NCBI GenBank assembly: GCA_964106915.2
Contig: OZ066914.1
Direction: 5' to 3' (one strand)
Length of the DNA stretch: 64,000 bases
From: Podarcis gaigeae
Taxonomy: Eukaryota
How positions within the stretch are numbered: the first letter of the stretch is position 1; every line of letters starts with the position of its first letter. Positions 31,290-58,672 of this stretch are shown in pieces. The notes under the pieces are model-generated. The model saw only the letters and a program-made list of their open reading frames with translations, was not told the origin of the DNA and made no database searches. The position numbers were made by a program, and so were the translations under genes.

Positions 31290-31890
31290 TAAAATGTGGC
31301 CAAGACGACGAGTAAGCACCTCGGAGCCGTTTAATCTCTCCACTTAGGCTGTGCAGTTGCCTCTGCCCCCGCCTACTTGTCCCCATGGAAGCCAACGGGG
31401 GGCTGACTGCCCTGCGAAGAACGACGCCTAGGGGCTGGGGCTGGGACACGCACGAGAGCGGTGCGTTTTTCTGTCAGGCAGCGAGCGGGGCAGCCCCGCG
31501 ACGGCAGTGTGGAAGGACCCATCCCTTTGGCGGCACGGAGAGTGGTGGGAGTGCCCAGAGCGCTGTCCCTGCAGCCCGTCCGACTCGCAGCTTCTCCTCG
31601 GCGGCGTCGCCATGTCCGTCAGCGAGATGTTCATCGCTTTGCAAGGGGTGCTCACGGCCGACCAGGATATCCGCGAGGTGAGAGAGGGTCGCGCCGGTGC
31701 GAGGACCACGGACGCTTCGCCAGAGCTCGGAAGGGGGATCCCTTCCTTCCCTTTCGCTGCTCCTCGGATCACGGGGACTAGAGCCTTGGTTTTCCTATCT
31801 TCCAAACCGCGGGAGCCAACCTTTTAACAACTGCATGCCTGAAACATGGGACCCATTTCTATCACGTAAACCCAAAACCGCCCTACGTGC
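31290..31890 (+). promoter_or_regulatory. TSN: CpG island / promoter and 5' UTR of TSN
   Basis: CpG-dense segment spanning the TSN ATG (gtcgccATG) and the first donor. Confidence 0.8.
31612..31677 (+). CDS. TSN: TSN coding exon 1
   Basis: MSVSEMFIALQGVLTADQDIRE; donor GAG|gtgaga. Confidence 0.97.
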
Positions 31891-37703: not shown

Positions 37704-37709
37704 AATAAA
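37704..37709 (+). terminator. TSN: TSN distal poly(A) signal
   Basis: AATAAA preceded by U-rich/UGUA elements and followed by GU/U-rich tgtgattttgttttgtatgtttc. Confidence 0.65.
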
Positions 37710-39885
37710 AGACACTGTTCTTTAATATTATGCTTCTGTGATTTTGTTTTGTATGTTTCTTACAAGCTTGCACCCTGTAATTCACAATAACTTGTTTAGT
37801 ATACAGGTGTCATATTTTCTTCATTTTAACGAAAACCCCTTCTTTCAAGACACTGCAATTCTACAGCACCCATTTTGGGAGAAAGGCTATGATAAAAGGT
37901 TCACAACTGGTGCAGAAAATCTTGCTAAACGATATTCTTACAGTTCTTTTTCCTGTCGGCTATAGAATAGAAAAGTGCTGCCACATATTTTGTTCTCTAG
38001 TATTCTACAGAGTTCTTTTTTATTATTATTCTCATGTGTCACTAGGATAGGAGTGATCTGGTATGGAAAACAAAAAGAGAAGTTAATTAAATTGCAAGGA
38101 AACATAATTATTAAAACATTTTATGTTAATCTACAATAATGTAACGGATTCCTTTTTAATTAAAATTTTGAAATACACTAGATTACATCATTTAAATAAT
38201 CACAAACTAGAAGAGGTAATTGAGCCTTGTTAACAGAAGCATATTTCAGAACGATTTCTGATGTTAAGACATTCCTTAGATTTCTACAATGGGTTTTTAA
38301 CCATTTACAAACAAATCCAGTGATCCGTAGAGGGAGAGAGTATTGCTTATCCACAGGATTATACAGGTATTCTGGAATGTTTGTGAGTGAACTCTGAATA
38401 TATTTCGGCTTCCTTTTCCTTTTATGTGTTACATGCATTCAGTGCAAAGTAAAACTCGGTAAACTGGTTCCTACATGGGCATGAGGGTAGAAGAAGAAAA
38501 CTGATAAGCTAACAAAAGATGGATGAATTAAATGTTTCCTGGGAGAGCAAGCTGAAATGAGGCTAATTATACTGTCTAAACATTCTCCTTTATTGTGTTA
38601 ATACTGCTCTAAATTTGACTGGATGTTGCCTAATGCTGTTATAATATATGCACAATGAAACCAGTCTATCATATATGGTCAAAATTCCTTTTTTCCAGCA
38701 CAATCATGCAGTGTCAGACATCTCACACTCCTATCTGATCCCCACATTATTAACAATATTAGCTCAATATTTTCTCTCTAGAGACCTGCTCCTCATAATC
38801 TGGTGCCAGTAACCCCTAATTACCATAGAGGAAGACATCCCAAGTAGGCCACAAATCTGAAGGGCCTGCCCTGCCCCCCTTGAGCAAGTCTTCACAGGGT
38901 AAAGCCTATTTGCCCTCAGACAGACAACACACATTTTGTTGTCTTCACTGTTATACCTATTTACAAAATGTGCAAAAGATTCCCATTACCCAGAATCTAG
39001 ATCTCACTCCTCTTACCACTTAAGAGCCTCCTCTTATTTCTCCTTAGGCCAAATTGTGCTGAAGTGATTATTTTGGCTAGCCAGATTAACACCTTATGTT
39101 CCTACAGCTCATGCTTAACTTTCACCCCACACTTAACAGGCAGTCTTCCAACTAACAACACTCTTCCTTTTCGCTACCAGCTCAGTCAGTTACACTAAGC
39201 AGAGGGTCAACCACCAACCTCTCAAGATGACAGCCTCTTTTTGACAGTTCTTGTTCAATGGGGCCCTCACTTTATCACCTCATCAGGCAATGCCTCTCAA
39301 AATGGGGAATGTGGCCTCCAGAAGGGTTTGTGGGACACCTACAAGAGAGGGGGTAGCATTTTGTAAGTCTTATTGATAAGTAGGTCTATAAAGAGGCTCA
39401 AGATTTCCCACAATCTGAGTGTCTACCTCATGGATTTGCTGACAGGGAAGGGTGGAATGGTCAGTCACAGACTGCTGTGGGTTACCTGAAGCTAGAGACC
39501 ATGGGCTGTGGAGCAGCTGAGGAGTAGGGGAGCAACTGTGTGTGTAGGAACCACGCAGTTGGGAGCAAAGCAGACATAAAGGTTGTAGGAGCCAGGTAGC
39601 TACACCCAATGAGGTTTCTAAGTTGGGTTGTATGGAAGATCTAACAAGCTTAAAAACAGGGCACATATTTTCCTTCAATTTGAGAAACACTCATTTAAGT
39701 GGTACTCGTCACAAATGAATTCTCAGTAGAAAACGACATCGTTACGGATAGCTTCAATGCTAATTGGCCAGATGAAGTTCATCCTTGGTGCAATTTTTGT
39801 TGAAAAGGAGATCTTCAACCCAAAGCAGGTTGTGAGGAAATTTCTGAGCTTACTTAGCCAAGTCATTTCGCAGTCAGCGATCCTT

Positions 39886-40681
39886 TCATGACCTATTGTG
39901 CGATGCGCTTATCATGATGTTGGGCAAGGCGTTGCGCCGCTTCTTCCAGGAGCCCAGCTCCCGAGAGTACCTCCGTATCTGCCTGAACCAGTGGTGAGTC
40001 CGTGCCTTGTCTCCATCTCGGAAGACAAAAGACTCCCGCCTGATCTCAAGGAGTTCAAACGTGTCGTCGCAGTCGGGATCCACAGAGACCACACAGTTGC
40101 TGAGTCTCAAGGGCTCCCTGAGCAAGCTGAACTTCCCATTGTTTTTGTCCCTAATCAGTACCAGTACTGCATCTTTCACAGGTCCTGGCTCTCCGGGTTC
40201 AAAGCTAGACTCAGAGGTGCGTCTGATGTTGACCATGAGGAGCACTTGCATGTTCTGGAATTTTAAGGTCTTGCTGCCCTTTTTGACCCACTGTCCATCA
40301 GGAGGCTGGGCCAGCTGCAAGGACCCTTCCATCACAAAGCGGGTTTCTTCCCGCAGCCAGCCCACAGTCTTGATAGCGGTTTCCCTCATTTCAATGTTAA
40401 TGACCTCCCTGTTCTTCTTGCTGTCTTGGCGGAAGGAACGCAAAGTCCACGAGTTCCCTTCCTGCTTGGTCTTCATGTTTATGTGCTCCAGGTGGGACTC
40501 AATGCGGCTTTTGGCCTCCCTCAGGCTGCTGTGATCTGGGTGGTACTCAGTGGTGGCTTTGATGATGCGGCTCAGCAGAAGTGGGTACTTGGTGACTCTC
40601 TGCAGTGGAGCCATGAGGAAGGACCGCAGATTCATGCGGCGAAGAGCTGTGTTGTCGTTCTGGGAGACATTGAGGAAAATC
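39886..40681 (-). CDS. RhoGEF last coding exon (end of DH, PH domain, C-terminal tail)
   Basis: ccctgtag|G IFLNVSQNDNTALRRMNLRSFLMAPLQRVTKYPLLL...RRNALPNIMISASHNRS TGA. Confidence 0.95.
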
Positions 40682-43600
40682 CTACAGGGAGGTAAAAAAA
40701 TAACGTATTTTGTAAACAGGTACAGGAAAACAGAAAAGCTTACACCGAGGGTCTTGTTCTTACATACACATGAGGCATTGTTATCTTTAATTAATTAACA
40801 TTTACAAAGTAATTATGACTTAAGATCCCATATATATACTGCTTTCCTGCAAAACCATTTACTTGATTTGCTAGACTCAGGAACATTTTTTATTTTTTCC
40901 CCGTTCTCAGGCTTTGTTTAATGCATCACTAAGGTAAGGTTCAATAGACTTGCTGTTGATATCTTAGCTGTTAAATATTACTCAATTTATGCAAATGTAG
41001 ACACAGGGCAGTATCTAGCATATTAGTTGCAATAGTGCAGGGAATTTTTCACCCTCTCCTTGTCCTATGTGTCCTCTGTGCACCCCCTATATCTGTTCTG
41101 AGGGTTCCCCCAGCCCTCTAAAACGGATTTGGGGAGGAGGTTGGAGGTGCAGGGAGCACTCAGACACTGTACTGGGAATGTCACAGGTGGATGGGCACGG
41201 CCTTTCTATCGTTCTGATAAAGCCCCAGTTGGTGATGTGCCTTTATTGGTAAACTCCTCAGCTCTAGTTGATGCCATGTATCCCGGTGTAAGTGTCTGGT
41301 CATTGGTGAACCCCCTCTCCCCAAAGCATACTTGCTTCAAAGTATGGGCTCATAGACAAACTTTTGCATATCTGAATTAATATGTACAGATGCAAATTCA
41401 GAATTTTAATATTACAGACGATAAGCCCATCGGACACCCCAAATATGTTCAATTATCTTGCACCACATTCCAGATCTGTCCCCTCTTCAATTAATTTACT
41501 CTCGTTTTCCCAACAGATCCTTCTCCAAATCCATTTAATCCCCTTACAATTGCCCCCATTCATTATTATCTCTAGGTACGATCATTTCAAATTCATTTAT
41601 TTCCACAAATTTATATCTTACTAACCCAGATCACACACCCCTCCGACACACCCCCAGTTAATCTCTTGAATACATTACCTACCCAGAAACGCTCAGTACA
41701 TTTAGGAAAAGAAACGGGGTCTGTGCCCCAAGGCATATACTCCCTACCAGGCCTGTGCAAGGGGGCGGGGACAGCTGGGTACACTTGCCCTGGGCCTTGG
41801 AGGGCTAGGGTGACTGGGGGGGCTCCACCAGGGGCCTGCAGGACTTACGGTGTCATGTCAAGAACAAGACTTCCATGCTGGGCTTCATACAAGCTCTGAA
41901 TGGTCCTGCTACCAACCCAAGATTAAGAGGTCTCCTCACCTGAGTAACTCCTTCTCTTTTTCCAGTGCATTGAGCATGTTCACTGAAGATGACTGCTGGA
42001 GGCAGTACGTCTGGAAGGCAGGCAGCATATTGACAAATTCCAGGAATATCTCACCGATGCACACAGTCATGAGGTCATCATCGCCCTGCCGACACACAAC
42101 ACACAAGGCAATGCATCAGCCAGAGACGTGGAGGTACTAGAGGCCATTAAAAGCCACCGGCCTAATATTCAGTTGTGGCGAATGTGCTGGAGTGGAGCTG
42201 GTGACATTGGTGTCTCCGCAGTTTACGGAGCTGAGGTGGGGCAGGGCAGCAGCAAAGGCAGGGCTGTGTGGACATACCAGCAGGAGGAACAGATTGGTGT
42301 CCACACAGCCCTGACCGCATCACCGCCCTGCCCCGTCCCAGCCCTGTCCAGGTAACATGCAGCCCAGACCTACCACCTGGACTGCAACTGCTAATATAAT
42401 TGAAAGCTGATCTTGGACTACACGTTAGCAACACACCTCATGATAGCTGAAACAACAGTGAGTTTCTTTTGGCCATGAACTACAGCTTGAATGCATTCTG
42501 AATAATTAAGCTCTTTCCGCACTGAAAACAAGGAAAGGTGCTACACGTTTTTTCCTTGAACTGCAATCTATTCTCCAAACAGTGGCCCAAGCCCAGTCAC
42601 TAGGAATCACAAGAGAGGAAAATGCTGTTATACTCAGCTTCTGTTTGTGAGCTTCCCATAGGCATCTCATTGGCCACTGTGAGGACAAGATGGTAGGTGA
42701 GATGGGCCTTTGGCCTGATCTAGTGGGGATCTTCTTATGGTTTTCTACTGACTCTGGTAGAACATTAAAAGTGTATGCAAACACAATGCAAAAGTGATTA
42801 ATCTCAGCTTGACAACCATGTTGTTATTCCCTTCCATGTCTTTTAATGATTTACTCTACTGATGTATATTTTTAGAATCTGTTACATTTTGATTCCTAAT
42901 TAAAAAAAGATAAAAGTATTTCACAAAAGACTATTGCAAGACCATTCCCCTTTTTTTGCCAGCATGAGGTGCTGTAGCACAGAGGTTCAATTATGACAGA
43001 GAGTACTACACTATTGCTGAAACAAAAACAAACATTCATAATTAAGGAAACATGCCACCCAACTTAAATGGTTTGCTGAAATCCATTAGCAGACAGCATC
43101 CTTGCAAGTTAAACTGATTTCAGTTGAATTCCATGGATTAAATCTGCACTTTTGAGGTTTTGAAACTGGAGACTGTACCACCCTATTCCCCCCAAAAATT
43201 TCAACCCCATATATGTCAAAATAGAACGCTCAACATCTGAACCCTTTAAACTTACTGCATTAAAATGTGCATGCACACAGATTCCCACGAAGTATTGCAA
43301 TGCAAATTTTGCATATATGATTTTGAGTTCTAAATTAATTTTTAAAATTGTGACTGGCAGAGCTGGAAATGGCTCACAGGATCTCTTTTACGCCTTTGGT
43401 CTTATCCCCCAACTCCTCTATTATCCTTGATTTCCCTCCTTGGCTCCCCAGCATCTTAAAAAGTTCAACTACATCTCTGACGCAGTGGATAGCATTATCA
43501 CATTTCCCCATTTTGGATGATTATATCTTGGCTTTCAAAGACACAAACCTTTTGCCCACTTGCACCACCAGCATGCAGTCCCTGGAAGGTCAGCTATGAG

Positions 43601-46600
43601 GAAATACAACACTTGAACTGAAAAAGGTTCCTTGACCCTCGTCCAAACTGGCTGGGAGTGACCCCCAAGGGTTTCACACAAGACCCTTTTCCAACCCTAC
43701 CTGGGAGATGCCAGAGATCAAACCTTGAACCTTTGTATATAAAACATGACCTCCGAGGACCAAGAAGAATCCCTGTCCTGCCTACTTGTCCATATACCCA
43801 GTACTGTCTTCTCTGATGGCCCTCTAAGGCAGAGGGTCTTCACTGCATCTGCTACATGATCCTTCCCCTTCCCTCCCTTTTAAAAATGGCTAAGTCAGAG
43901 ACTGAACCTGGAACTTTCTGCATGAAAAGCATGTGTTGTCCTGCTGAGCTCTGGCCCTTCCCCAAGGCGATTATCCGGCCTTCAAATAATACTCTCTCCT
44001 GCATTTGACTTGCAAAGTTCAGCAACAGGGCGCAGAGCCGTGTGCCGTACACAGGGTGCTAGTCTGTAATAATGAACCATCAAGAACTGCTGTTCCAGCA
44101 AATTATAAGTAACCTTGAGTACGTTCAAGAAAGAGAGCCAGTTTGGAGCGTGGCTCAAATAACACTTAAAGGATTTAACTAGCCTTGCGTCTGTTCTTGG
44201 CCACCGGCAATTGTTGGCAGGCAAAGCCGCTTTTAATTGCTCTCCTGTGGGCAAGATGGGCTTCTTTGAATGCTGCTGTAAAAATTAATTTCATGGTAAA
44301 AGGGTGTTTTGTTTCTTTCAGAGCCCTTAATAAAGCACAGGGCATAATATAAATACACAGCGGCGTGTAAAAGCCATTCGCTTTGCTGAGGTGCTAGCGC
44401 AACCGTCTGCCTGCCGGCATTGTTTTCCTTCAGCCAATGGAAATGCGGCAATATTTGGAACTGATGGTAGGCTTCGCTGCACAGCAAATTGAAAATGCTA
44501 AAGGGGCAATTCCACATGTCATAAAGCTAGCCCCAGACTGGTCTGTTCAGGAGCACATGGGGCCTTCCCCAGCCTGGTGCCTGCCAGATGTTTTGGACTA
44601 CAACTCCCATCACCCCTTACCATTGGACATGCTGGCTGGGGCTGATGGGAGCTGTAGTCTAACAACACCTAGAGGGCACCAGGCTGGGGGAGGTTGGCAT
44701 AGGGATTCATGCATTGCAGGGGGCTTTCTTAGGTGATTCTCTGATTCTACAAGGCACAAAGGATTTTTGAGATGCTTATTCACCAAGTGGTCTTGAATTG
44801 ACGTATCTTGTTGACAATCACAAAGAAACACAGGCGACCTACGGTAGACTGGGAGCATCCAATCAGAGCTAGAGGCAGATGTTTACTCACACAATTGAAA
44901 TGACAAAAAATAAACAAAAAGTTGGTACCCTTTGGAACAAGAGCACAGGGAAGCTGCCTTATACCAAACCAGATCAACTAGCTCAATACTGTCTTCTTTG
45001 ACTGGTAGCATCTTTCCCAGCCCTACCTGGAGATGGTGGGGACTGAATATGGCACCTCCTACACGCAATGCAGATGCTCTTACACTCAGCAATGGCCCCT
45101 TCCCCCTTTCAGCAGCTAAAATGAGGCAAACAGAGGCATACCCATTCTCAATTCCCTTACCTGCTCATTAGGCATTGTGCCTTTCTAATGAGTGGCACAA
45201 CCTTTGAGTGCCATAGTAACAAAGCTGCAGTGGCAAAAGTAGCTCATTATAACTGCACAGGGAAACGGAGAAGAAATCTGAGACCACACACTACCTGCTC
45301 AAAGGCCTGCTCAATCTCTTCCTGAAGGTACTCCAGGAAGTTTTCGTTGAGGTCAATGAGCTCTTGTATGTTGCCGAAAACCACCAGCAGCTGGTCCTGT
45401 GTTAGCAGGCCAGCAGCTTGCATGGGGAGGTAGAACTCTTCCTTGATGATGCGCAGGTCCTCCCCGTAGCTGGTTTCAGTGTTGACAAACTCCAGCACCG
45501 ACTCCTTCCGCTCTGTCCGGCACTTCAGGCACTTCTCGCAGAGGACGGCCCGCCTCTTGTTCTGGTTCTGGACATCCGTCTCCAGCGGGAAGTGTCTCCC
45601 CCCACAGTCGGTGCAAGGCTGGTGGGCCTCCCACGCCTGCAGAGATGCCAGCGTCTCCGACGCCTTGCTCCTCCACTTCCTACTCAGCACTTGGCTGATG
45701 CCGCTGTCCGCCCGCTCCATCTCAGCCGACCTCATCCTTGGCACCCCTCCACTGCTGGCATCGGCACTGTCCCTCTCCTCACTCCCGCCCACAATGCCGC
45801 TGTCGGCGCTGAGACTGCTGACGTTGCTCCAGCGGTGTTTGGAACGAAAGGAGCCGCCCAGAATGCCGTGGTTCTCATCAACGTTGCTGCTGTAGTTGAG
45901 GTTGGCTTTCGTCAGCACTGGGCCTGAGCGGGGAGGAAAATAAAATAAATCTATTTGTAGAACCTTCCCATTGTTTTGTTCCTCAGCCCTGTTCACCCAA
46001 CAGTAAAAAACTTGTCCTGTTTTGTTTTGTTTTTCTCCTTGTGACCAGGAAGGATTCTGCAAAGTACCTGAATACAGAGACAGGGAGAATCTAGTTCTTA
46101 ATGATATGTTGCTACATTCTGGCATTTTCATACATACATAAAGATTTTCTTTTTCTTCATGCTAAGAAAAGCTTGACCTGATCGCTAAGCATGCTCTTAA
46201 AGGTACAGTAGCAGGTCATTAAAAAAAAAAAAGACAGAAACCCTCCTTGTATTGTACTGGTTAAATTGTCCATCTAGCCTAATGTTACCTCAAAGCCTTG
46301 GTCAAGGTTTCCTTAGCCTTGCCTGCTGAGATCCTTTAAATAGACCTAGACAACTTTTGACCCACCAATATATCCCACTGGCTACATTGCTTGCTGGGTG
46401 CTTCTATATATTTGCAGCCCCCCAAAAGTAGAGGTTTATCAAACTCCTGGTGGGCCACAATGCACAACAGTGTTTAGTCTCATGGGCCACATGCTAGCAG
46501 GTGTACTTGACAGTATGCAAAGAACATATTCCACTTCTGAGTTACATTTCTCTCTTTAATTCAACAGCTAGGGAAGGACGCTCTCATTTGGAATTTGGCT

Positions 46601-49600
46601 CAGGTGTGTTGGAAGAAACAAGCCTGTCCTAATGAACTATGCAAACAACAAGCGGAAGCCACATATTGATGGCTCCATCTGCTCAGTATACTTGCAGAAC
46701 AATTGTTCCAGGTTCTACTCACCTTTTGCTATATCATGCATGAAGTCAAAGAAAGCACTAGATTGAAGCTTAGCTCATGACACTGCCTTACCTTTGCACA
46801 CCCCCTTTCCTGCATTTGCCAGGAGCCAGTTTGGTCCTGTATGGGCCAAATCCAGGCTATTGGCTGTTGCTATGAATTGTACAGACAGAGAGTACACTGG
46901 AGGAGGAGCTGCTACTGTATTCCCTCTCCTCTGGAGGGACCCTGGAATAAGAGGCTACAGCCGGCTGCAAACATAATCCACGGCTGTTGAGTGCGAGATG
47001 TTTGGAGGCTATCTCTCTGAATGATGACTGCTAACCTAATGTCAAAACACACCCAGAACTATGAGCGACATGGACAGACCCTGCAAATCACACACAAAGC
47101 AAAAGGCAAGGGGAGCATACTGGAGTCTCTCTCTTGCCGGCGCTTCTGGGCATGCTGCCGTGCTGCTGCAGCGATCTTCAGCTCCAGTTGTTTCCTCTTC
47201 ACAGCATCTGTTGGCATCGGATCACTGAAATGAGGCCGCAGCCGACACTCCCGTTGAGCTTTGGTGCAGTCCGAAGTTTCGTAGGAGATGTCAGAACTTG
47301 ATCGGCGGCAGTTGGGGCTGGAGCTCTGAAAGGAAAGCAAGGGGTGGTTATGGGGAGAAGTTTCTACTAAACAATATATGAGATATTTAAATAAGGTAAA
47401 GGTAAAGGGACCCCTGACCATTAGGTCCAGTCGTGACCGACTCTGGGGTGGTGGTGCTCATCTTGCTTTATTGGCCGAGGGAGCTGGCGTACCGCTTCCG
47501 GGTCATGTGGCCAGCATGACTAAGCTGCTTCTGGAGAACCAGAGCAGCGCACGGAAACACCGTTTACCTTCCCACCGGAGCGGTACCTATTTATCTACTT
47601 GCACTTTGATGTGCTTTCGAACTACTAGGTTGGCAGGAGCAGGGACCAAGCAAGAAGAGCTCACTCCGTTGTAGGGATTCGAACTGCCAACCTTCTGAAT
47701 GGCAAGTCCTAAGCTCTGTGGTTTAACCCCCAGTGCCACCCGCATCCCTTGAAGATACTTAAATATACATGGCCAAATCCGACACCCAGCACCCACTACC
47801 TCTAAAACCGTTGTTTCTCCTCATATCTTTCTGGCGGGGCAACACCCTCACTCAAGAAAGGAAGCAAAATATGAGCTGTTGGTGTTACATTAAACACATG
47901 TTCATGAAATCTGTGTGCAGCTGTTTAAATGTGCACATAGTTTAATATTGGGGGGGGTGTCAGCAAGCAACATGTATTTTATCGGGCTGTATGGGAGAGT
48001 TGGCAGGACGGGCAACCATATGTGAATAGTATATCGCAGCAGCAGCTTTACTCCAGTTAAGATGGCAACAGCTCTCTTTCCCCAGCCACCACTGTTTGCA
48101 ATCCAAACCCAATGATTTGGATTTGTAAGTGCTTGACTGAGGATGAAACGGGCATTCCTCCCCATGCCTTTCCTTACACGCTTTCTGAAGGCTGGAACTT
48201 TATGTCTGTACTACATATTTAAACCACTTTCCAACTGGTTTCATTGTTATGGGTCATGACCAAGCGATCAAGAAACACTTTTCTGTGAAGAAACTACACA
48301 GATTACTCTGAGCACCCTCACACAGCTGTTGTTCACCCAAAGCTCCAGTTGGGTGAAGCTAGGATAAGAAAACAACTCTCAAACCAATTTTGGGCCTGAT
48401 CCAGCTAACATTATGTGAACAGGTCCTATTGAAAGCAATGGAGAAAGTTAATCACCAGTTCCATTGCTTTCAACAGTACTTTGGGCCACTCCAGATATCC
48501 TTATTGCACACAGGTGATGATTCATATTCATGCTGGTATCGGGGCGGTTATCCACAATCCCACTTTCAGTTGTTTGCACGTGTCATCGTTCTGAGGTGAA
48601 CATACTTTTCAATTGGTGCATGTCCTGTAGCTTCCTGTTGCCTGTAGCTTCCTGTTGAAACCCTGTAACTTTTCATATCTCAAATGTCTCAGGTTTTTTG
48701 TTTTGTCCTGCATTTGTTTTGCTACAGAGCAAGATTATTCCTCCAGACAGGAAATATGCAGTAACACTGGGGAAACATTTGCAGAACAACTGATAAAGCA
48801 GAATAATCATAGCTGTCAACTTTTCCCTTTTCTTGCGAGGAATCCTATTCGGAATAAGGGCATTTCCCTTTAAAAAAAGGAAACGTTGACAGCTATGAGA
48901 ATAATGTGTGGACAGTCCAGCGTCAATCCAACACGATTGCTCTATTACTGCATGAATGACACGCTATGGAATACACCTCCAAAATGCACCAGTCTGGAGG
49001 GGCCCTTAGTCACATGTAACTTTAGCTGGATTTGCACAGTAGTGTTGATGTGCCTTAGGTATCTTCATTCATTAGCTTGTTCCTTGCAGCCACCCAGAAG
49101 CAGGAAGGGTGAGATGGGGTGTGGGAAAACAGGAAAGAGAGAGAGGGGAGAGAGGTAGAAGAAGGGAGGGAGGAAAAGGCATGGAGAGGAGAGCCAGAAG
49201 AGTATTAGTGACAGGGGTGCAGAATAGCTGAGAGCTGTCATAGCAAGTAAAGTTACAGCTCCCTGACCCAACACTTCTGAGACCCCTTTCTGCCCCAGAC
49301 CACGCAACTCACGGTGGGTTGATGCGAGTCCTCCACAAAAGTGAGGTCATCCTTCTTAAGTTCACAGAATCCTTTGGAGGGGGGCTCAGGGGTAGCTTCG
49401 CCACTGCAGCTGTGAAAAAAGGGACACCACCCCAATTAATGTCCTGCACAAACAGCAGTCCAGAGCCAACTCCAAGGGTTGGGAGGAAAATGCATCTTTA
49501 AAGCTACAGTGTATTATTCTACAGGTCTTCTACCTTGTGAAGTCAAAAGCACCTCATATCGTCTTTCTCTTACATACACCATTCCATAAATGTACTTCTA

Positions 49601-52600
49601 ATGATGCAGTGGATAATAGGGTTGTGTGTGTGGATTTTTTAATGAAACATGTTTGTAAATTTAAAGGGTTGCCCCCCCCTTAATATTTCTGTATAAAAGC
49701 AGCATCTAAAGTGCATGAAATCTTTAAGCTTCTCGTCCCTCTTAGTTGTTTTATTTGCACTAAGATAGGAGACAACTTTCTGTTCTGTCATCAGAAAGAA
49801 AGTGCTCCCCTAAATTATCAGATACCATGAATAATTTATCATTCATAAATGATGAGGAAACTATATATCCAAGCCCCGAGGGACAGAAGAGGGAGGACAA
49901 AACCTAGTCACACCCACATATACAGGATTAGCGGTGGAGGAAACAGAGATAATATTTAGCATTTACGTAGCTCACTTGAAGTGTTCACTACACTCGGCAC
50001 ACAATTATGAATGGGTGAAGGGGTTTAAGATTTCCAGGTGTCAATCACACACAAAAATGCATGCTTTGCTTATTTGATATATTGCATTTGGGGATCTTGT
50101 GAATCATCAGGAGACAGCTGTATCCTTCCTTCTGCCTGTGTTAAAGAACTGTATACCATTCTAGATAGTTGCCCTCTAGGCAACCCTTCATACAAAAACA
50201 CAAAACACATCTTTTAAAATAAATATTCTCTGTGTGGCCCATCACACATTTTCTCACAAATATACAGTGAATCTTTGGTTACTATGCTGCTTCATTTAGC
50301 ATTTTTAAAATAAAAAAATTACATCATTTAACAAAACAACAACAGAGTAACTATACCAACTCTGGATAGTGACATTGGATAATATCTGTATGCATATTAT
50401 TCATGTGGCTTGGCTCACTTTCATGAATCACTTGGTATTATCTGATATGAAGACAGCTCAGGGGTGTGTGACTTATTCACTCCTGCTTTCAGCTTGTGGC
50501 ACAGTGTTCTGAATTGATCTGAAAGGAGCTGGTGCATGGATAATCCTGCCTTGTGGGGAAGAAAAGGGAGGTTGGAGTCCATGCCAGTTCAGTGTTCTCC
50601 AACTCTATGGTTCTGCCTAACTGGGATGACAGCGCTTTCTGCCCCACAATATTATACACACTGTGGACAAATTCCCAGCTTAGAATGCAGCTAGCTTGTT
50701 CTATTTCTCAACTGAAGCTAGTTTGGAAGGAAAGGCATCAAAATGCGGTAAAAGTATCTCCCCGCTTATGCATGTTCGATTCTCGCGTGGCCATGTATAT
50801 GCTCAGTGCAGGGAAACAATAGATAGATTTAAACTTCAAAAAGGCAAGAAAAAGGCAAAAGCAGTCCTAAAAGAGCACAAGAACTACAAAAATGGTGTGA
50901 AAAGAGCAGAAAAAAATGGCTAGCAATCCCAGGAGCCTTTGCAACTGCAATCTCATGAGCCTTTGCACCAACCTTTGAGTTAAGTCTGAGAAAGGAGGTT
51001 TGGAGGGAGCGATTGTGGTGGAGTTTGGCATGTTTTGGGTGGCGCTTGGCGGGGAAGCTGTTTACAGGATTTAGATGTGCCTAATATTCTGTGTGCCCTG
51101 CTTCCCAAACCAGCTGTGGAAGTACACTGGATGCAGAATAAACAGAACTGTGAACACCACCTCAGTTTTCCAGAGAAAGAGAGAGTACGGTAGGTATTTC
51201 AGGCGATATGCAAAATGGCAAATTATATTAAAACTACTGGGAATTTTCCTTTGTAGGAAGTTATTTCTCTTTATATTCAAGAAATCATATACACACAGTT
51301 CCATATTTATTGGATACTGGAGTGCTCTTATCTGTACATTAGTTCTCATGATATATATCCTCTCAACTGCCTCTTGGCCGACTGTTTTTGCATCTATTCT
51401 ATCTCTTTCTCCCAGGTGAGAGTAGTTCTTCCATATGGTATTAGAGCAAGGAATTAATGTAATGGACGATTTCTGAATGGGGGGGGGAAATGTACATAAT
51501 GGTACTGCAACTATTTGTGGCTGAGGTGGTTCAATCAGAGATGTGCCTAATTCGAATGAAGCTAGGATGGTCAGTATATGAGGTGGGTGTTGTTTTTGTT
51601 TCTGCTAGACATGGTAATTGGCTTCAGTTTTTGAAGAAGGGTAGTCCATTTGCCTGCTTCACTGAAAAAAAAATTGTTCCCAAGGCTCCGCCCTATTTAG
51701 TACCTCACTGCTGCAGATCCCAAATGGTCCAACTTCATCTTTGATTTTATTATGGAACCATCTTTATCCACCTCTTAAATAACTGAGCAATACTTCAATC
51801 TTGAGGCACCCTGTCATCTAGCATTCCTTCATCTACTCTACAAGCTGGGCCTTTCTGTTATGGCTGAATTTTTCCTCTTCTCACTTCCCCCATATCATCC
51901 TTGACATTGGCTGCTGTTTTGACCTTGAAAGAAAACAGTATTTTGCCCAGCAACTTCATGCACTTTAATATGCTCAAATCCAAATATTATTATTTTTTTA
52001 ACCTTGGGACTTTTATTTCCTTAACTGCTTTCTCTGACATCGTAAAATTTTTGCCTGTCTTTATTCAATTCCTTATATACTGGATGATCTGATTTCCTGC
52101 CCATTCACTGACTTGACTATTAATAATGCCCTAGGTTTTCATCTTTCTCTGTCTTCAGAAGTCAAATTCCTCAGAAAGCCTGGTAAACACAATTCACAAT
52201 CAAAAGGTAAAACAGGTAATAAATCAGGATCTCATTTCAATCATGCTTTCAACCATTTCTTTTTTGCTCAAGTAAAAAAAAAATGCTCTACAATTCATGA
52301 CAGGATTCAGATTATTCCATGAAGATAAAACACTACAAATTAGAGGCTCAGAATTAAAACATTAAGCTGCTTATAAATGTGCTGAGTAAATTACATTTGG
52401 AAGAAAGTTCAGAAATAAAGGGCAGCTGTGTTGCATGTAATTCAAACACACACACAAAATTCCAGCAGAATCTTAAGAAGCCAATGACAAGAATAACCCA
52501 GGAAGTCTTCCACTTCACATGAATGAATGCTAACTTAATCTGAAATGATAAAATTGTCATGGATGAAAAGGGTATCAATGGCCAGTAGTTATGAAGGCTA

Positions 52601-55600
52601 TATTACCTCCAGTATGCCTCTCACTACCAGTTGCTGGACAGCATAAGTGCTATTGCAAAAATGTCCTGCTTGTGGGCTTCTTGTAGGCAACTGGGTGGCC
52701 ACTGTGGTAACAGGATGCTGGACCAAATGGACCTTTGGTCTGATCCAGCAGTGCTCTTCTTATGATTTTATGTGCTGAAAGGATGCTGCTCCATGTAAAC
52801 AATTGACTGTATGCAGCAGCTCACCTTACGGACTGGCCTCACACCAGATCTCCCCATGTTATTCATATTACTGAGGTTTTCTTACAACAAGCACTGGGTC
52901 AAATCATGCGGCATGGGGGAAATCCACACGGCAAGACAAGGCATATGAATACCTGGCCCCATGGAGCAACGGCCACAAGGACCCAATTTCAAGCAGCCTC
53001 AGCGCCACATGTTGCTGAAGTGAACCTAAGGCTTGCAACCCTGTCATTTCACTGCCAAATCCTGAGAATATGTTGCCTTTCAAATCTAGTGACACCCCTG
53101 CCGCTGAGCCAGAAACTCCCATCGTCAAAACAAGATCCTCCATGAGATTGCTAAAGCTCTGGAAGAAAATGACAGCTGGGTTTTGAGAAAATAATGGCTC
53201 TCAGTTTTACAATTTCAAAGGGAAACTGTTTGGTCTCATAAGCTTTTGACTCAAAGTCATGAGAAGCTTGGCAACTGGTTGAAATGACCATTGTGCTTTT
53301 CATAGCAATGAATTAATTTCAGAAAGCTCTGAATGTAAGCAAACTGAGCTTGATAAAGTCCATCTATTACTATGACCCTGCCTGGCAAAATGGATGTTGT
53401 GAACAAAAGAAAACACTGTGCGATGGATCTCAGTCCCATACTTGCAGAACCCATGGCTTACAAGAGCAGAGGCTGGCTCACCTGAGCAGGAGGAGGCGTT
53501 TTTCTGCACTTGGGACAATGGAATCTCTATGTAGATCAGACAAGAGTGCCTCAATTTTTTTAGACCAAAGGGCTGCATTTTCTCAGTCTCCAAGCTCCTG
53601 TGTGGTTTTAAATGTTTGAATACCCCTTTCATTGATTTTTGCTGCTCTGATGGGTTTCACCAGGCTGTATATTATGTATTTTCTGTTGCGTTTATAGTTT
53701 TCTTGTTCTCATTCTTGTTTGTTACTTTAATTTTCAAAATTTGTATTGCCTCATTTTTGCACATCGATAAACCAGATTTTCTGGTTTATTGTGAACTGCT
53801 TCTTTCCCCTCCTAGCACCAGAAAGATAAACTAGGAAGCCTTGGCTTCCTAGTATACCTGAATCAGGGTTCATGGTTTGTGGCTTCCTAGTTTATCTGAA
53901 TCAGGGTTCATGGTTTGTTGATCCGTAACAAACAAACAAACAAACAAACAAACAAACAAACAAACAAACAAACCATGATTACAAGCAAACTTTAAGCCAT
54001 TTAAGCCATAGTTGTTGGCCTATGACATGTGGACCTGTTAGGGAGCAACAAGTCATGATTCCTAGCTTGGATGTAATGGGAAGCCAAGACTTCCTGGTTT
54101 GTTCATCCTGCCTGGGGGGAATGAGGTGGGAGTGATTGAGCATGCTGCTCATTTACAATAAACCACAATCTGCCAGAAAATCTGACTTATCATGATATGT
54201 GAATGTAGATGTGATAGAGCAGAACATAAATCTTTATATATAAACCAATAAGGGTTCCATTCAGTCACCCCGTATGACCCTAGAATAGTGAATCCTAAGC
54301 TTATGGTTCCAACAAGGGAATTCAGTCTCTGCCTTGAACTCATCATGGAAACTATCCCTCATAGGATTTATGTTGTAGGTTGCCCCAAATACACACTGCA
54401 GGAAATCTACCAATATATTAGGTCTCCATAATCATTGATAGCTTAGAAAAGGCAGCATTTTTTGAATTATTTGCCCAAGTCACCTGAAAGTCAGTTTTCA
54501 AGAGGTCACAGACTTTAATATTATGTTTTGTGTCACCTCCATTCACATGATTGACATTTCCTCCAACCTTCTGCCCAGAGTCAATAATTAACCCTCCCTG
54601 TGAAGATCTAGATGTGTGTCAATGAACAAGGAGGACCAGCCATTTCAGTGCCTCAAGGAACAGAGCAAACACTCCCCACGGGGCAGAGGGAGTCCCCACC
54701 TCTCCACAATCCCCAGACTACCCTTCTAGATTGTTAGGCAAACTCCTTCCTGACATCAGATATAGCAGTTAGTTAAAAACCCCAGCTTCATCAGTTCTCC
54801 CAAAGTGGCATATGGGAAAATGTCTGCACAAATTAACACAGCCCCAACACTGTCTCTTTCCCTACAGCTGCCTGATACCTCAAAGAAAGGAACTCCCCAC
54901 AGGTCAAAAGGGGGAAAGCTATTAATGGCGTAAGTGTCTGTGCAAATTATTACACCTCTGCAGCATACTGATTCAGCAAGGAAATTCTATAAATTACTTA
55001 ATGCAGCTAAATTTGAAAGTGCATTTATAAGTACCCGAAAACTGAAATTGCTCTCAAGAACTCTAACAGAGTTGGTTACCTCTTCTTAATGAGGTCCAGT
55101 GCAGAGCCTATAAATTCATCCTTCATTTTCTGCAGTTTAGCTCCATAGCTGGATATATCTGTCGCTTCTAATAGCAATGGGCAGCAAGAAGACTGGTTTT
55201 CAGGCACCACTGGCTGTCCAGCATGGTGGAGGACTTCGCTTAGTTGTCTTGCATTCAATCCCTGAGTCTCCCCTTCAGCAAAAGTTTTCCCTCCCTCCTC
55301 CCTAAGGGCTGCAGCAGACTGTAGAGGTGGTCTTGCAATTGGACTCGAACAAATGGGGACCGGGATTCTATCTGAAGTTGGCACTTCATAGCGCTTGTCC
55401 CTAGCCATAGGCATGTTCATCAGGCAGAAGCTCCTGTCCCATGTAGATGAATTATCTTGATAGCCAACAAGGCCAGAAGTGCTCTGGGTATTTTCATGAA
55501 ACACATCATCATAATAATCTATCGTAGCAACCGTTTCTTTGGCAAGAATTTGCTGGGCACCTGAACAAGGGTTCTGATTTATTTTTTCTTCCAACTTTTG

Positions 55601-56632
55601 GGTTCCTTCCTTCACATCGTTTGTCACGTCACCGCTGCCACCGAGAAAACACGTCTCCTTGATTCTCATCCGCTTGAACTCTTCAAAAGTTGGAATGTAG
55701 AGTCTCTCTTTGAAGTCCCCTTTTTTGCTCAGCTCCAAAATCCTTTTGGTGTCTCCTTCCCCCTCATATCCCTTTAAGGATCCAGTCGTTTGGGACTTGA
55801 CCATGTCCTGGCCATCACTGGCACAATGGAGAGTCAAGTTGGGCGAGCTGTTCTGTCTCCTGATCTGCAACCTTCTCCGAGCTTCTTGCTTGATGTCTTC
55901 TGGGTTTGTTAGTCGGCGAGAAAAGCAAGGGCGATGACTCTCCAGAGCTGTCCATGGCCCGTGAGTGAGGGTGGCATGCTGCACAAATATGGTGCAACAG
56001 TTCACCGAACAACCGTTCTTATATTGCTGGCATGCCCGGCATTCAGAGCATTCCCTTGGAACCAGGTCATTCAAGGAAACCTGAGGTCTGAGAGGCTTGC
56101 AGATCTCTGCAGCTTTACTACTGTGAATTCGAAGTTTTTCCTTTAGGGTTTTTTTGGCATCCCCGTCGATGGAGGAGAAAAGCCACGGAGGCACTTTGGC
56201 ACAAGGAGGAAGGGTGACGTCTCGCGCTGCAGGTGGAATTCTGTCCAACGTGAGAGGGAAGTGTCGGCAGCATTCAGGTGAGCTGGGGGATGGAGTACCT
56301 TCCGCAGAACACTTTGACCAATGAGCTGTGCCTTTGTAACGGACAACAAATTCTTTGTCTACATTTCCGTAGTGGGGATGGCAATGCGGCTCAGCCCCCG
56401 TGGCCCAGTGTAGATTCTCCACACTTCGATACAGATGTGCCCCTGCAGTGCTGTCTGCTTTGCTCACAGGATTAAAGTCCCCAGTAAAAATGCGAGCGTC
56501 CAAGTTCTTCAGTGGATGCATGCTGCTAACTGAGAAATCCTTTAAGCCATGTTGTGCATACAGCTGATTATTCTGGCAGCTCAAAATTACCCGACAGTGT
56601 TCCTGCCTCTCATCAACGCTGATGTATGTCAT
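39886..56632 (-). CDS. Uncharacterised Dbl-family RhoGEF (DH-PH), 1141 aa; complement(join(39886..40681,41940..42085,45295..45923,47121..47325,49313..49409,55080..56632))
   Basis: Six GT-AG exons with consistent phases (2,0,1,0,2) sum to 3426 nt; DH CR1 motif EFVNTETSYGEDL and CR3 motif FLMAPLQRVTKYPLLL; PH-like C-terminus ending HHWFRQI. Start taken as the first in-frame ATG (gctATGA) after an in-frame TGA. Confidence 0.9.
41940..42085 (-). CDS. RhoGEF coding exon 5 (DH middle)
   Basis: cggcag|GDDDLMTVCIGEIFLEFVNMLPAFQTYCLQQSSSVNMLNALEKEKELL(R)|gtgagg; not present in the ORF track. Confidence 0.93.
42600..42745 (+). mobile_element. CR1 LINE 3' fragment
   Basis: ttggccactgtgaggacaagatggtaggtgagatgggcctttggcctgatc...tcttatg. 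Confidence 0.55.
44560..44697. mobile_element. Palindromic hAT-type MITE (ggactacaactcccatc family)
   Basis: ccttccccagcctggtgcc...ggcaccaggctgggggagg inverted arms around ggactacaactcccatca/tgatgggagctgtagtc; degenerate relatives near 10430, 11345, 12185, 13040 and 25205. Confidence 0.75.
45295..45923 (-). CDS. RhoGEF coding exon 4 (DSGI motifs, Cys cluster, DH start)
   Basis: ccccgctcag|GC PVLTKAN...ERKESVLEFVNTETSYGEDLRIIKEEFYLPM...AFEQ|gtagtg. Confidence 0.94.
47121..47325 (-). CDS. RhoGEF coding exon 3
   Basis: ctttcag|SSSPNCRRSSSD...LRPHFSDPMPTDAVKRKQLELKIAAAARQHAQKRRQERDS|gtatgc; phases fit both neighbours. Confidence 0.88.
47394..47748 (-). mobile_element. Full-length Sauria SINE (second subfamily)
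   Basis: (ACCTTT)n tail and tRNA-like head; imperfect TSD agatatttaaata/agatacttaaata. Confidence 0.92.
48624..48657. repeat. Exact 17-bp tandem duplication
   Basis: cctgtagcttcctgttg x2. Confidence 0.9.
49313..49409 (-). CDS. RhoGEF coding exon 2
   Basis: ttttttcacag|C CSGEATPEPPSKGFCELKKDDLTFVEDSHQPT|gtgagt; bridges phase 2 to phase 0. Confidence 0.82.
52575..52770 (+). mobile_element. CR1 LINE 3' fragment
   Basis: ggccactgtggtaacaggatgctggaccaaatggacctttggtctgatccagcagtgctcttcttatg. Confidence 0.7.
53927..53973 (+). repeat. (AAAC)n microsatellite
   Basis: Read directly. Confidence 0.95.
55080..56632 (-). CDS. RhoGEF first coding exon (exon probably extends to an acceptor at 56824)
   Basis: 1.55-kb open frame MTYISVDERQEH...SSYGAKLQKMKDEFIGSALDLIKK; donor AAGAG|gtaacc; acceptor ttttcttctttgcatcatcag| at 56825/56824. 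Confidence 0.85.
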
Positions 56633-56961
56633 AGCAAATCGACGTGGACAATCTAACAGGCTGATGCTTTTTGAAGGAAGAGGGCAAGAGGAGGAAGGAG
56701 TTGTCGGACTGCTCAGATGCTGTTCAGGAGTCCTAGCCACAGACAGCAGGGCTGTGCTATCTGGGTGCTCACATCAACGAGCAGGCACATCTCCACTGTG
56801 AGAGCACGTGCGGATGGAGAACACCTGATGATGCAAAGAAGAAAAGGGAGCTTACAGAAGAGACACAGCATTCAAAGAGAAGACGGGCAGCCAACGATCA
56901 CAGAAGTAACCAAAAGTGAAGCTCACCCGCTACCTCTGACTTTACAGCTGTTCAGCATGCT

Positions 56962-57120
56962 CTGTGTGGTGTGGTGTAGTGGTTAGAGTGTTGGACTACG
57001 ACCTTGGAGACCACGGTTCAAATCCCCACTTGGTCATAAAGCTCACTGGGTGACCTGAGGCCAATCACTGTCTCTCAGCCTAGCCTACCTCACATGGTTA
57101 GTGAAAAGGTAGATTGAGGA
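56962..57120 (+). mobile_element. tRNA-derived (MIR/Squam3-like) SINE
   Basis: A box tggtgtagtgg, B box ggttcaaatcc, core gggtgacctgaggccaatcactgtctctcagcctagcctacctcac. Confidence 0.75.
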
Positions 57121-58672
57121 GTGGGGAAATTATTCTCTCAGCATCACCCCAGGAACCTCATGGAAGCATGCAGTGTATTTTCTACCTTAAAACTTCTCTC
57201 TGTGGAGACTGCACTGTGGCTAAACGTGTGAATGTGCATTTCTTACAAGCAAGCCCACTACATGAACCACTACCCCATAGGGGCTCTTTCTGATGTATAT
57301 GGATTTTGTACTAGAGTACTTACACCTGCATATGATTGCCCCCCCCCAAATAATATAATAATGTAAAGCCTTGCAGAGCATCCCTAGTTTGCATGAATAA
57401 GATGTCCATGTTTTCCCCAAGGTTATTTTCTCTTATCCGCTCACCACCTCACCTGGTCCTCTCCGAGCCTAGGAGGGCTTGTTTTGAGATGCCTGATTTT
57501 CTTCATGCTTTAATTATTTCTCCTCTGCTGTTCTCTCTGGGGAAGGCTGCAGGTAACGGCAAAGAAGCATTTCTTGTGTGATCAAAGGGTACAACTTGAT
57601 CTGCCAGGAAAGACAGAATAAAGACAGCACGAGAGGTGAACGTTTAGCAGAGAACAAAGATGGCTCACCACAGAGCAGCACTGGCATAGAGGGAGGTGGG
57701 AATCTGCCAGTGAAGAAGTTTCATAGTAGGATTCTATAGATTCAATGGAAATTACTCCCAGCAAATTGCAGCTACTGAAGCAGTCGCTGTGAGTTCTTCT
57801 CCCACAGTATGAACCTGGTGGTGTGCAAACTATAGACACACCAGCAAGCCAAGTGCTAGATATGTCAGTGAGTCAGTACGTATGGTCTCTCTGACTTAAA
57901 TTTATTTTTAAAAATAATAATAGATACACACTTGCACTTATGCACATGTGTGTTCATTTTTCCCACTACGTTAAAACAATGCTCCTGGGACTATGTGAAT
58001 TGGCATGTTGGTGTTGTCACAGTGATTTGCTAATAGATGCTTAACACAGCTGCAACACTATCAGCATTCAGTCTGAAACCAAACAGAAAATCTACACTCC
58101 CTGCCCCAGAGCTTATACCAGGTCTGAAAAACTTTATAAATGTCCAATTTATCCTGCTGTTCTTTGTCTTCAAATAATCTGGCATATCACTTTGTGTAAA
58201 TATAAAAGTAATTTTTAATAAGAAGTCATGCTGATGGCATTTGACTCTGCACCATCTCACAAAAATCTATCCAAATGTTAGCAAGACATGCTGAAAACAT
58301 AAAGCAGGCTATATGTGTGTACCTAGGTGGAAAGAAAATCAGAAGTTTATGAGGGGAAATTGTTAATATTATGCAAAATATGATTTTTTTAATATAATAT
58401 ACCAGTGAGTCTGTTGCAAGTTCTTCTAGGATATCTTAAAAATGTTATACACCCAGAACATTGTAATTGGAAAAGAAACCTGCTAAGTATAGCAAAAAAG
58501 GAAGAAGCTAACAACAACTCAGTGTACTGTGAGCGTACTCAGATAATGCCAACTGAACAAGAGTGGTTTAATAAACATGGCACATTACCTTACTGAGCTT
58601 ACTGCGATGTTATGATTAAAAGAAGGAAAACATCAGAAAATAACACTTTGAGAAAACTTGGTTGTTCTTTAT

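What the first reader, a model, noticed from the sequence alone, without database searches (positions are those of the whole stretch)
39886..56632. Intact 1141-aa DH-PH RhoGEF next to TSN with no human counterpart that I recognise
Seen: six exons splice in frame with canonical sites and intact DH CR1 and CR3 motifs, so it looks functional. Established: I know of no RhoGEF directly downstream of human TSN. Inference: this is an ancestral Dbl-family gene kept in reptiles and lost or relocated in mammals, hence little studied. More than half of the protein is an N-terminal region with no recognisable domain.
Basis: partly seen in the sequence, partly recalled or inferred. Interest (0 to 1): 0.7.

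Follow-up and report, generated by a model that had tools for sequence, protein, structure and literature searches.

The report
RhoGEF with a PKA-blocking tail
This lizard gene is an intact, spliced copy of arhgef49 (GEF64C), an ancient likely RhoA activator that placental mammals are reported to have lost, and its last 20 residues copy the inhibitor peptide PKI so closely that the protein likely also blocks protein kinase A.

Summary
The gene is real: six coding exons give 1141 residues without a stop, and spliced contigs from related animals bridge all five introns. It is arhgef49 (si:dkey-91i10.2), the vertebrate ortholog of Drosophila RhoGEF64C.

What my searches did not find in print is the C-terminal tail, WKKRRNALPNIMIS. 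It matches this genome's own PKI proteins at 8 of 11 positions. Both arginines are kept in 67 of 69 distant relatives, the phospho-site position toggles between Ala and Gly about ten times and is never Ser/Thr, the tail is predicted unfolded, and it docks in the PKA active site in a model (0.64, best control 0.08; possibly by memory of PKI).

Best reading: a RhoA exchange factor that also traps PKA as a pseudosubstrate (about 55%). Rivals: calcineurin PxIxIT docking, another basophilic kinase, an intramolecular latch. The N-terminal 690 residues are predicted disordered but carry conserved short motifs, and a four-cysteine element precedes the DH domain. No binding or exchange activity was measured.

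The parts
57453..57600 (-). non-coding 5' exon (its own AG acceptor suggests a further exon upstream)
   Evidence: junction 56821/57450 with CT..AC ends in 3 of 4 runs; AG/GT ends
55080..56824 (-). first coding exon; 5' UTR to 56633, ATG at 56632, aa 1-517, predicted disordered
49313..49409 (-). coding exon 2 (aa 518-550)
47121..47325 (-). coding exon 3 (aa 551-618): conserved RRSSSD, RLRPHFSDPMP and KRKQLE helix
45295..45923 (-). coding exon 4 (aa 619-828): two DSG motifs, four-cysteine element, DH start with CR1
41940..42085 (-). coding exon 5 (aa 829-876), DH middle
39886..40681 (-). coding exon 6 (aa 877-1141 and stop): DH end with CR3, PH domain, tail
37885..39885 (-). 3' UTR as far as one contig reaches; tail-to-tail with TSN
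   Evidence: run X9 record 15; candidate poly(A) hexamers at 38019 and 37721
39907..39948 (-). PKI-like tail, aa 1122-1135 (W P-6, R P-3, R P-2, A P0, L P+1); overlaps a PxIxI[ST]-like hexamer
39955..40344 (-). PH domain, aa 990-1119 (by fold; no Pfam PH hit)
40636..40641 (-). R891-R892 in the alpha4-alpha5 loop, aligned with the RR of PDZ-RhoGEF; RhoA-type specificity residue (inferred)
45529..45615 (-). CxxC-x21-CxxC element, aa 722-750, directly before DH helix 1; likely zinc site (untested)
   Evidence: each Cys in 48-50 of 55 rows outside jawed vertebrates; 114 of 131 vertebrate proteins match the strict pattern
45694..45834 (-). two DSG motifs (aa 649-662, 687-695), beta-TrCP-degron-like (label recalled)
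   Evidence: 98 and 127 of 131 vertebrate proteins; second found in 29 of 49 distant rows
55835..55864 (-). RRQxSxPxL motif after a helix (aa 257-266), 14-3-3/AMPK-type phosphosite pattern (label recalled)
   Evidence: 121 of 131; helix 244-258
55664..55696 (-). IP[TS]FEEFKxMR helical motif (aa 313-323)
   Evidence: 115 of 131 vertebrates, 10 of 49 distant rows; helix 316-326
55082..55189 (-). conserved amphipathic helix block (aa 482-517)
   Evidence: 120 of 131; helix 496-516
31612..36337 (+). TSN (translin), convergent neighbour; not part of the mechanism

Best explanation
[quoted passage not shown] Shown: gene structure, splicing, orthology, intact catalytic residues, tail conservation. 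Inferred: (1) the DH domain loads GTP on RhoA, with some Rac activity as in the fly protein; (2) the unfolded tail lies in the PKA-C active site with R1125/R1126 on the acidic subsites, A1128 at the phospho-site and L1129 in the P+1 pocket; (3) since it lacks PKI's P-6 Arg and P-11 Phe, binding is likely moderate, as for Smoothened, and local; (4) trapping PKA-C where Rho is switched on would remove a Rho antagonist (PKA-Rho antagonism recalled) or let cAMP gate the GEF; (5) the disordered N-terminus likely sets location and turnover through its short motifs. My odds: orthology 0.97, RhoA preference 0.8, PKA pseudosubstrate 0.6.
For: Orthology: hits named arhgef49/si:dkey-91i10.2 at 71-80% over exon 6; hit P0157 is XP_006816158, the accession that Fort and Blangy list as RhoGEF64C; DH tree puts lizard, D. 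persimilis and that protein in one clade, 98/94. RhoA: R891 in 74 of 74 and R/K892 in 74 of 74 rows, aligned with PDZ-RhoGEF RR where intersectin has KG; the loop Arg of Lbc reads RhoA D45/E54 (PMC4156082 passage); fly GEF64C acts through Rho (PMC2199320). Tail: 8 of 11 identical to two lizard PKIs; RRNA[LM]PNIMI in 120 of 120 vertebrate hits; RRxxxxN in 67 of 69 representatives that reach the PH end, P0 = Ala 56, Gly 11, Ser/Thr 0; at least 10 Ala/Gly changes on a 60-row tree, while 7 of 7 comparable Ala columns of DH-PH admit Ser or Thr; tail better conserved (0.82) than DH (0.67) or PH (0.48) in 55 distant rows; pLDDT under 50 from N+2 on; a genome-wide codon pattern for RRNALP[ND]I finds 4 places: this gene, two PKI genes and one that starts with a Ser codon (control 1); complex model 0.64 against best control 0.08, mark reached by 51 of 78 solved and 2 of 108 mismatched pairs, runs agree in at least 85% of contacts, partner pLDDT about 50, canonical register.
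Against: No binding, inhibition or exchange was measured. The complex pass may come from memory of solved PKA-PKI structures, peptides were outside its calibration, the pair was emu tail with loach PKA-C, and no mutant control or rival partner was run. All four lizard PKIs have Arg at P-6 and Phe at P-11; the tail has Trp and Arg. The P-13 Tyr is a vertebrate trait (Tyr in 4 of 55 distant rows), lies in the PH end helix, and the model placed residues 432-442 without confident contacts. Invariant N at P+3 (PKI has D), W at P-6 (63 of 67) and the hydrophobic P+6 may serve another partner. Rows are related, so counts overstate independent evidence. Two of 69 rows lack the motif. RhoA preference rests on two residues and on the fly protein, which also exchanged Rac in vitro.
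Confidence: 0.55

Rival explanations
1. Same RhoGEF, but the tail is mainly a calcineurin-docking PxIxIT motif (PNIMI[SNT]) preceded by a basic patch; the PKI likeness is incidental, or both motifs overlap and compete.
For: PNIMI[SNT] fits Px[IVLF]x[IVLF][TSHEDQNKR] (consensus from PMC4654906 passage) except that it is tested only by pattern: 120 of 120 vertebrate hits; hydrophobic P+4 and P+6 in nearly all 67 rows; tail unfolded.
Against: The Pro is present in only 26 of 67 representatives, Ala in 37; it does not explain two invariant Arg or a P0 that never takes Ser/Thr; lizard PKI L001 itself has D-I-L-V-S at P+3 to P+7.
Confidence: 0.12
2. The tail is a pseudosubstrate, but for another basophilic kinase (PRKX, PKG, PKC or similar) rather than PKA-C.
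For: P0 restricted to Ala/Gly with RR at P-3/P-2 marks a decoy, not its target; the tool notes that a pass does not tell which family member binds; PKI-specific P-6 Arg and P-11 Phe are missing; G000 has PRKX- and PKG-like loci with a similar activation-loop exon (labels recalled).
Against: The match to PKI runs from P-3 to P+7, beyond the generic RRxA core.
Confidence: 0.1
3. The tail is an intramolecular latch or a targeting signal (folds on the PH/DH surface, binds acidic membrane or importin through KKRR) and binds no kinase.
For: GxW before the basic run is conserved (G 49 and W 51 of 55); AlphaFold gives a short helix at 1122-1126 with pLDDT about 55; a fly missense allele at the C-terminus abolished gain of function (PMC2199320 text; its position is in a figure I could not see).
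Against: Both models leave the motif at low confidence; a basic patch would tolerate K/R exchange, but P-3 and P-2 are Arg in 55 of 55 while P-4 and P-5 vary.
Confidence: 0.18
4. One reading: a relocated ortholog of a named human ARHGEF/PLEKHG gene.
For: My searches list only the best 120 hits and search no mammalian genome directly.
Against: No placental among 120 listed hits down to fish at 57%; best PDB chains 83 bits; Fort and Blangy count it apart from the 71 human members.
Confidence: 0.02

Closest known systems
Drosophila RhoGEF64C / GEF64C (Bashaw et al. 2001, PMC2199320)
   Same: Ortholog: C-terminal DH-PH, 46% identical over Cys element-DH-PH-tail to the D. persimilis protein, long low-complexity N-terminus, DSG motif, four-Cys element and RRNAL tail all shared.
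   Different: 1141 against about 1990 aa; most vertebrate N-terminal motifs are not detected in the fly protein; the parts of the paper I read describe proline-rich motifs and do not mention the tail, cysteines or PKA.
Vertebrate arhgef49 / si:dkey-91i10.2 = 'GEF64C' of Fort and Blangy 2017 (PMC5499878)
   Same: Same gene; 1120 of 1141 residues identical to Podarcis muralis LOC114603832; their table lists Anolis, Python and Thamnophis members of 1127-1140 aa.
   Different: That paper has 0 occurrences of PKA, pseudosubstrate or zinc in its main text; arhgef49 appears in 1 paper of the library, in a gene list.
PKI proteins (PF02827; PKIA/B/G)
   Same: Pseudosubstrate core P-3 to P+7, 7-8 of 11 identical to three of four lizard PKIs, 5 of 11 to the fourth; same register in the PKA model.
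   Different: No P-6 Arg, no P-11 Phe, no PF02827 match; a motif on a 1141-aa GEF, not a 70-aa free inhibitor. Works like PKI; not a member.
Smoothened PKI motif (Happ et al., bioRxiv 10.1101/2021.07.05.451193)
   Same: A PKI-like decoy embedded in a large signalling protein; the lizard tail meets the four hallmarks that paper lists (Ala at P0, Arg at P-2/P-3, hydrophobic P+1 with aromatic P-13, helix upstream).
   Different: Unrelated protein; Smoothened binding was measured (K_D about 0.8-0.9 micromolar), this one is not; here the upstream helix is part of the PH fold and P-13 is aromatic only in vertebrates.
PDZ-RhoGEF, LARG, AKAP-Lbc, intersectin (closest solved DH-PH)
   Same: DH-PH fold (Foldseek E 9e-14, about 20% identity; Z 23); RR in the alpha4-alpha5 loop as in PDZ-RhoGEF.
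   Different: Paralogs only. AKAP-Lbc anchors PKA through its regulatory subunits (recalled), not through a catalytic-site decoy.

Membership tests
Dbl-family RhoGEF | DH domain | tested here: met
   PF00621 on three window exons; 130 bits against cut-off 27.6 on the 98%-identical P0001
Dbl-family RhoGEF | PH domain directly after DH | tested here: met
   AlphaFold beta-sandwich plus end helix, pLDDT mostly over 85; top Foldseek and VIA matches are DH-PH tandems spanning both parts; Pfam gives no PH hit
Dbl-family RhoGEF | catalytic CR1 Thr/Glu, CR3 Gln/Lys, alpha6 Asn | tested here: met
   T767 69, E768 72, Q904 74, K908 68, N945 73 of 74 rows; their roles are recalled
Dbl-family RhoGEF | nucleotide exchange on a Rho GTPase | not testable with these tools
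   shown only for the fly ortholog (PMC2199320)
GEF64C / arhgef49 orthogroup | groups with Drosophila and listed RhoGEF64C proteins apart from other DH proteins | tested here: met
   clade of 29 rows, 98/94, in a 40-row DH tree with 11 unnamed DH proteins outside it; no human sequence was in the tree; accession match
GEF64C / arhgef49 orthogroup | single copy, DH-PH at the C-terminus behind a long non-domain N-terminus | tested here: met
   one strong match in G000, next E 1e-4
1:1 ortholog of a human ARHGEF/PLEKHG | placental protein as close as marsupial or fish orthologs | tested here: not met
   0 placental among 120 listed of 464 hits and 120 of 393; unnamed rows could not be assigned
PKA pseudosubstrate motif (PKI/Smoothened type) | non-phosphorylatable P0 | tested here: met
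   Ala 56, Gly 11, Ser/Thr 0 of 67; after RRx in the N-terminal background Ala+Gly make 7% and Ser+Thr 24%
PKA pseudosubstrate motif (PKI/Smoothened type) | Arg at P-3 and P-2, hydrophobic P+1 | tested here: met
   RR 67 of 69; P+1 L/M/V/F in 65 of 67
PKA pseudosubstrate motif (PKI/Smoothened type) | aromatic at P-11 or P-13 on an upstream helix | tested here: inconclusive
   Y1115 at P-13 in vertebrates, 4 of 55 distant rows (Tyr/Phe at P-14 in 38); helix belongs to PH; W at P-6 sits by the Y236/P237 pocket in the model
PKA pseudosubstrate motif (PKI/Smoothened type) | ATP-dependent binding to and inhibition of PKA-C | not testable with these tools
   model support only
PKI protein family (PF02827) | profile match, P-6 Arg, P-11 Phe | tested here: not met
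   4 PF02827 loci in G000, none here; no hit on P0001
[quoted passage not shown]
   120 of 120 vertebrate hits but Pro in 26 of 67 representatives
calcineurin PxIxIT motif | binding to calcineurin A | not tested
   the single complex job went to PKA-C

The most novel reading that the evidence does not exclude
GEF64C/arhgef49 proteins are Rho exchange factors with a built-in PKI: from flies and molluscs to marsupials one polypeptide switches Rho on and blocks the PKA catalytic subunit at the same spot, a direct cAMP-Rho coupling that placental mammals discarded.
Probability: 0.5. Interest if true: 0.75.

Novelty: new variant of a known kind. Interest (0 to 1): 0.55.

Why it matters
The gene and its placental loss are known, so the finding as first written is ordinary. 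The tail changes that. Few proteins besides PKA's regulatory subunits and PKIs are known to use a PKA decoy site (Smoothened; ARHGAP36 recalled), and my searches found none reported on a Dbl-family GEF. If it holds, it gives fly GEF64C, which drives Rho-dependent axon attraction (PMC2199320) and kidney stellate-cell shape (PMC9231607), a direct link to cAMP signalling, testable with one peptide and one point mutation in flies, zebrafish or chick. It would also mean placentals lost a cAMP-Rho coupling module, after a phase of faster change visible in marsupials.

Tried and rejected
PDB sequence search with the last 37 aa found only polyketide-synthase noise at E over 1, no PKI: too short a match. 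ESM Atlas gave no usable hit for the N-terminal 715 aa or the IQCB1-like exon. No RNA holder was listed on record; runs are guessed RNA. No Rfam match in the window. CLASP_N search rang nowhere, uninformative. PsGEF was my first guess and was dropped: no C2/PDZ match, and the accession tie is to GEF64C. A coding extension upstream of the ATG, as in fish, was rejected: in-frame stops in the spliced 5' UTR. An AP-2 beta-appendage reading of FEEFKRMR and an AKAP reading of helix 496-516 (both patterns recalled) fit only partly and were not tested. Literature: arhgef49 1 paper; dkey-91i10.2 0; GEF64C 49 papers, 30 listed; GEF64C/PKA/pseudosubstrate/calcineurin 77 papers with 3 of 5 terms, none of the 20 listed names GEF64C, 57 unseen; pseudosubstrate/PKA/ARHGAP36/RhoGEF/PKI-like 0; RRNAL-type strings were swamped by RNAi and crRNA words. 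The scan's earlier findings held nothing. Alignment A2 (74 rows) was picked after I had seen the tails, so one search is biased; repeat the count on all 148 new representative hits with a profile that stops before the tail (69 reach the PH end; 79 do not and were not counted); one search dropped 7 of 67 rows as too short.

Full report
Observation. Contigs from related organisms, in runs guessed to be RNA, skip exactly these introns: the three 3' junctions in 4 of 4 runs of 3 studies, the two 5' junctions in 4 of 4 and 3 of 4 runs of 2 studies. They add a non-coding exon at 57600-57453, an acceptor at 56824 and a 3' UTR reaching 37885, so the transcript ends near the TSN poly(A) signal at 37704. 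The gene is single-copy in G000. TSN is confirmed by Pfam.

Identity. Exon 6 finds 393 proteins at E<=1e-20; the 120 listed are all non-mammalian jawed vertebrates or unnamed, 71-99% identical, the fish ones named arhgef49 or si:dkey-91i10.2. The whole protein is 1120 of 1141 identical to Podarcis muralis LOC114603832. A search of 1.84 billion representatives reaches invertebrates at 40-48% over DH, PH and tail. Named among them are D. persimilis (1989 aa), amphioxus, lamprey, hagfish, scallop, spider, the marsupial Dromiciops, and XP_006816158 of Saccoglossus. That accession is listed as RhoGEF64C in the supplement of Fort and Blangy 2017 (PMC5499878; I saw passages and rows 1-32 of 54 for GEF64C). 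A DH tree joins lizard, fly and hemichordate proteins at 98/94 against 11 other DH proteins (no human row). The paper states that GEF64C is present in vertebrates and marsupials, absent from placentals and not found in platypus. My marsupial query agrees: three marsupials first, then sauropsids at 62-64%, no placental or monotreme among 120 listed of 464. So the gene is known, and 'no human counterpart' is right and published.

Catalytic part. AlphaFold gives a confident DH-PH tandem (mean pLDDT 84) whose best matches are PDZ-RhoGEF, p115, LARG and intersectin at about 20% identity. CR1, CR3 and the alpha6 Asn are intact. R891-R892 align with the RR of PDZ-RhoGEF, where intersectin has KG; the Arg of this loop in Lbc recognises RhoA D45 and E54 (PMC4156082, passage; the residue equivalence is my inference). 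Fly GEF64C exchanged Rho and, slightly less, Rac but not Cdc42, and its phenotypes needed Rho (PMC2199320, parts 1-3 of 4 read, figures not held). RhoA preference is therefore likely, not shown.

The tail. After the PH end helix comes GSWKKRRNALPNIMIS. RRNA[LM]PNIMI is present in 120 of 120 vertebrate hits. The genome's four PKI genes (one confirmed against PDB PKI-alpha) read RRNALHDILVS, RRNALPDILGS (twice) and RRNAIPDLQGD; the tail matches two of them at 8 of 11, BLOSUM 38, while the best unrelated 11-mer of 119,753 scored 30. A codon pattern for RRNALP[ND]I finds in 1.5 Gb only this gene, two PKI genes and one Ser-starting match, against 1 for the reversed control. With a profile that stops before the tail, 69 of 148 representatives reach the PH end; 67 carry RRxxxxN, with Ala (56) or Gly (11) and never Ser or Thr at the phospho-site position. 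That position changes at least 10 times on a 60-row tree, whereas all 7 comparable Ala columns in DH-PH admit Ser or Thr. The tail is unfolded in both models. Folded with PKA-C and ATP, a 32-residue tail scored 0.64 against a best control of 0.08 (mark reached by 51 of 78 solved and 2 of 108 mismatched pairs; contacts agree in at least 85%; partner pLDDT about 50). P-2 Arg touches E171/E204, Ala touches catalytic D167 and G201, Leu the 199-206 pocket, Trp E204/P237 (numbering with Met1). This is the PKI register (recalled), and the pass may be memory of PKI complexes. The lizard tail meets the four hallmarks given for the Smoothened PKI motif (bioRxiv 2021.07.05.451193, passages only, supplements closed).

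Against. PKI's P-6 Arg and P-11 Phe are missing; the P-13 Tyr is vertebrate-specific and sits in the PH helix, which the model left unplaced; P+3 is Asn, not Asp. PNIMI[SNT] also fits the calcineurin PxIxIT pattern (PMC4654906, passages) in 120 of 120 vertebrate hits, though Pro is kept in only 26 of 67 representatives. Another basophilic kinase, or an intramolecular role, is not excluded. Nothing was measured.

N-terminus. Residues 1-690 are predicted disordered except helices 244-258, 316-326, 496-516 and 591-614, which coincide with blocks conserved to sharks. Eleven short motifs there are present in 98-127 of 131 vertebrate proteins of 1000 aa or more; some reach invertebrates (IP[TS]FxEF 10 of 49, second DSG 29 of 49). 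A CxxC..CxxC element directly before DH is found in 35 of 49 distant rows and has moderate confidence in the models; zinc binding is a guess. Functional labels for these motifs (14-3-3/AMPK site, beta-TrCP degron) are recalled patterns.

Evolution. Marsupial proteins are 65-68% identical to the lizard over the C-terminal module, against 87% for axolotl and 81% for coelacanth, with a long stem branch; they fail the patterns for six N-terminal motifs (0 of 3) yet keep the tail (3 of 3). An EAF exon lies 70 kb beyond the window with IQCB1-like exons before it (recognised from memory). In human, TSN and IQCB1/EAF2 lie on different chromosomes (recalled), so the loss may coincide with a breakpoint; untested.

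Mechanism and verdict. Most likely a RhoA GEF whose tail holds PKA-C by a decoy site with moderate affinity, damping PKA where Rho is activated or letting cAMP gate the GEF. The gene is known; the tail was not found in my searches, which cover open-access text only and left 57 papers unseen. PMC9231607 (passages) gives a second fly phenotype; PMC13599118 (passage) only lists the gene. Interest 0.55.

Noticed in passing
G000:C1:91273880-91274026 (L016-L017) and L015-L016: EAF-family exon 70 kb past the window and IQCB1-like exons before it, sharing a CpG island; order TSN, arhgef49, IQCB1, EAF2. Human TSN and IQCB1/EAF2 are on different chromosomes (recalled), so the placental loss may lie at a breakpoint.
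   Followed up: partly
G000:C9:90497165-90497260: The only hNIFK_binding match is on another contig, although NIFK neighbours TSN in human (recalled).
   Followed up: no
G000 C16, C3, C17, C15 (L001-L004): Four PKI genes in this lizard; two share RRNALPDIL, so one may be a fourth paralog beside PKIA/B/G.
   Followed up: no
window 56633-57600: The spliced 5' UTR holds four upstream ATGs (ORFs of 18, 34, 25 and 1 codons), and the main ATG has a weak context; fish and sharks have a coding extension here.
   Followed up: partly
window 37704-37885: TSN and arhgef49 3' ends come within about 180 bases; minus-strand ATTAAA at 37721 would bring them almost into contact.
   Followed up: no
window 47390-47720, 48808-48883, 44570-44670: Intronic repeats with very high contig depth; the first looks like a squamate SINE (label recalled).
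   Followed up: no
window 16750-17500 and G000:C1:91244000-91245000: CpG islands with no gene assigned; the second lies between arhgef49 and IQCB1 and could be a distal promoter or another gene.
   Followed up: no
P0124, P0274, P0275: Marsupial orthologs evolve faster than amphibian or fish ones and have lost several N-terminal motifs but not the tail.
   Followed up: partly
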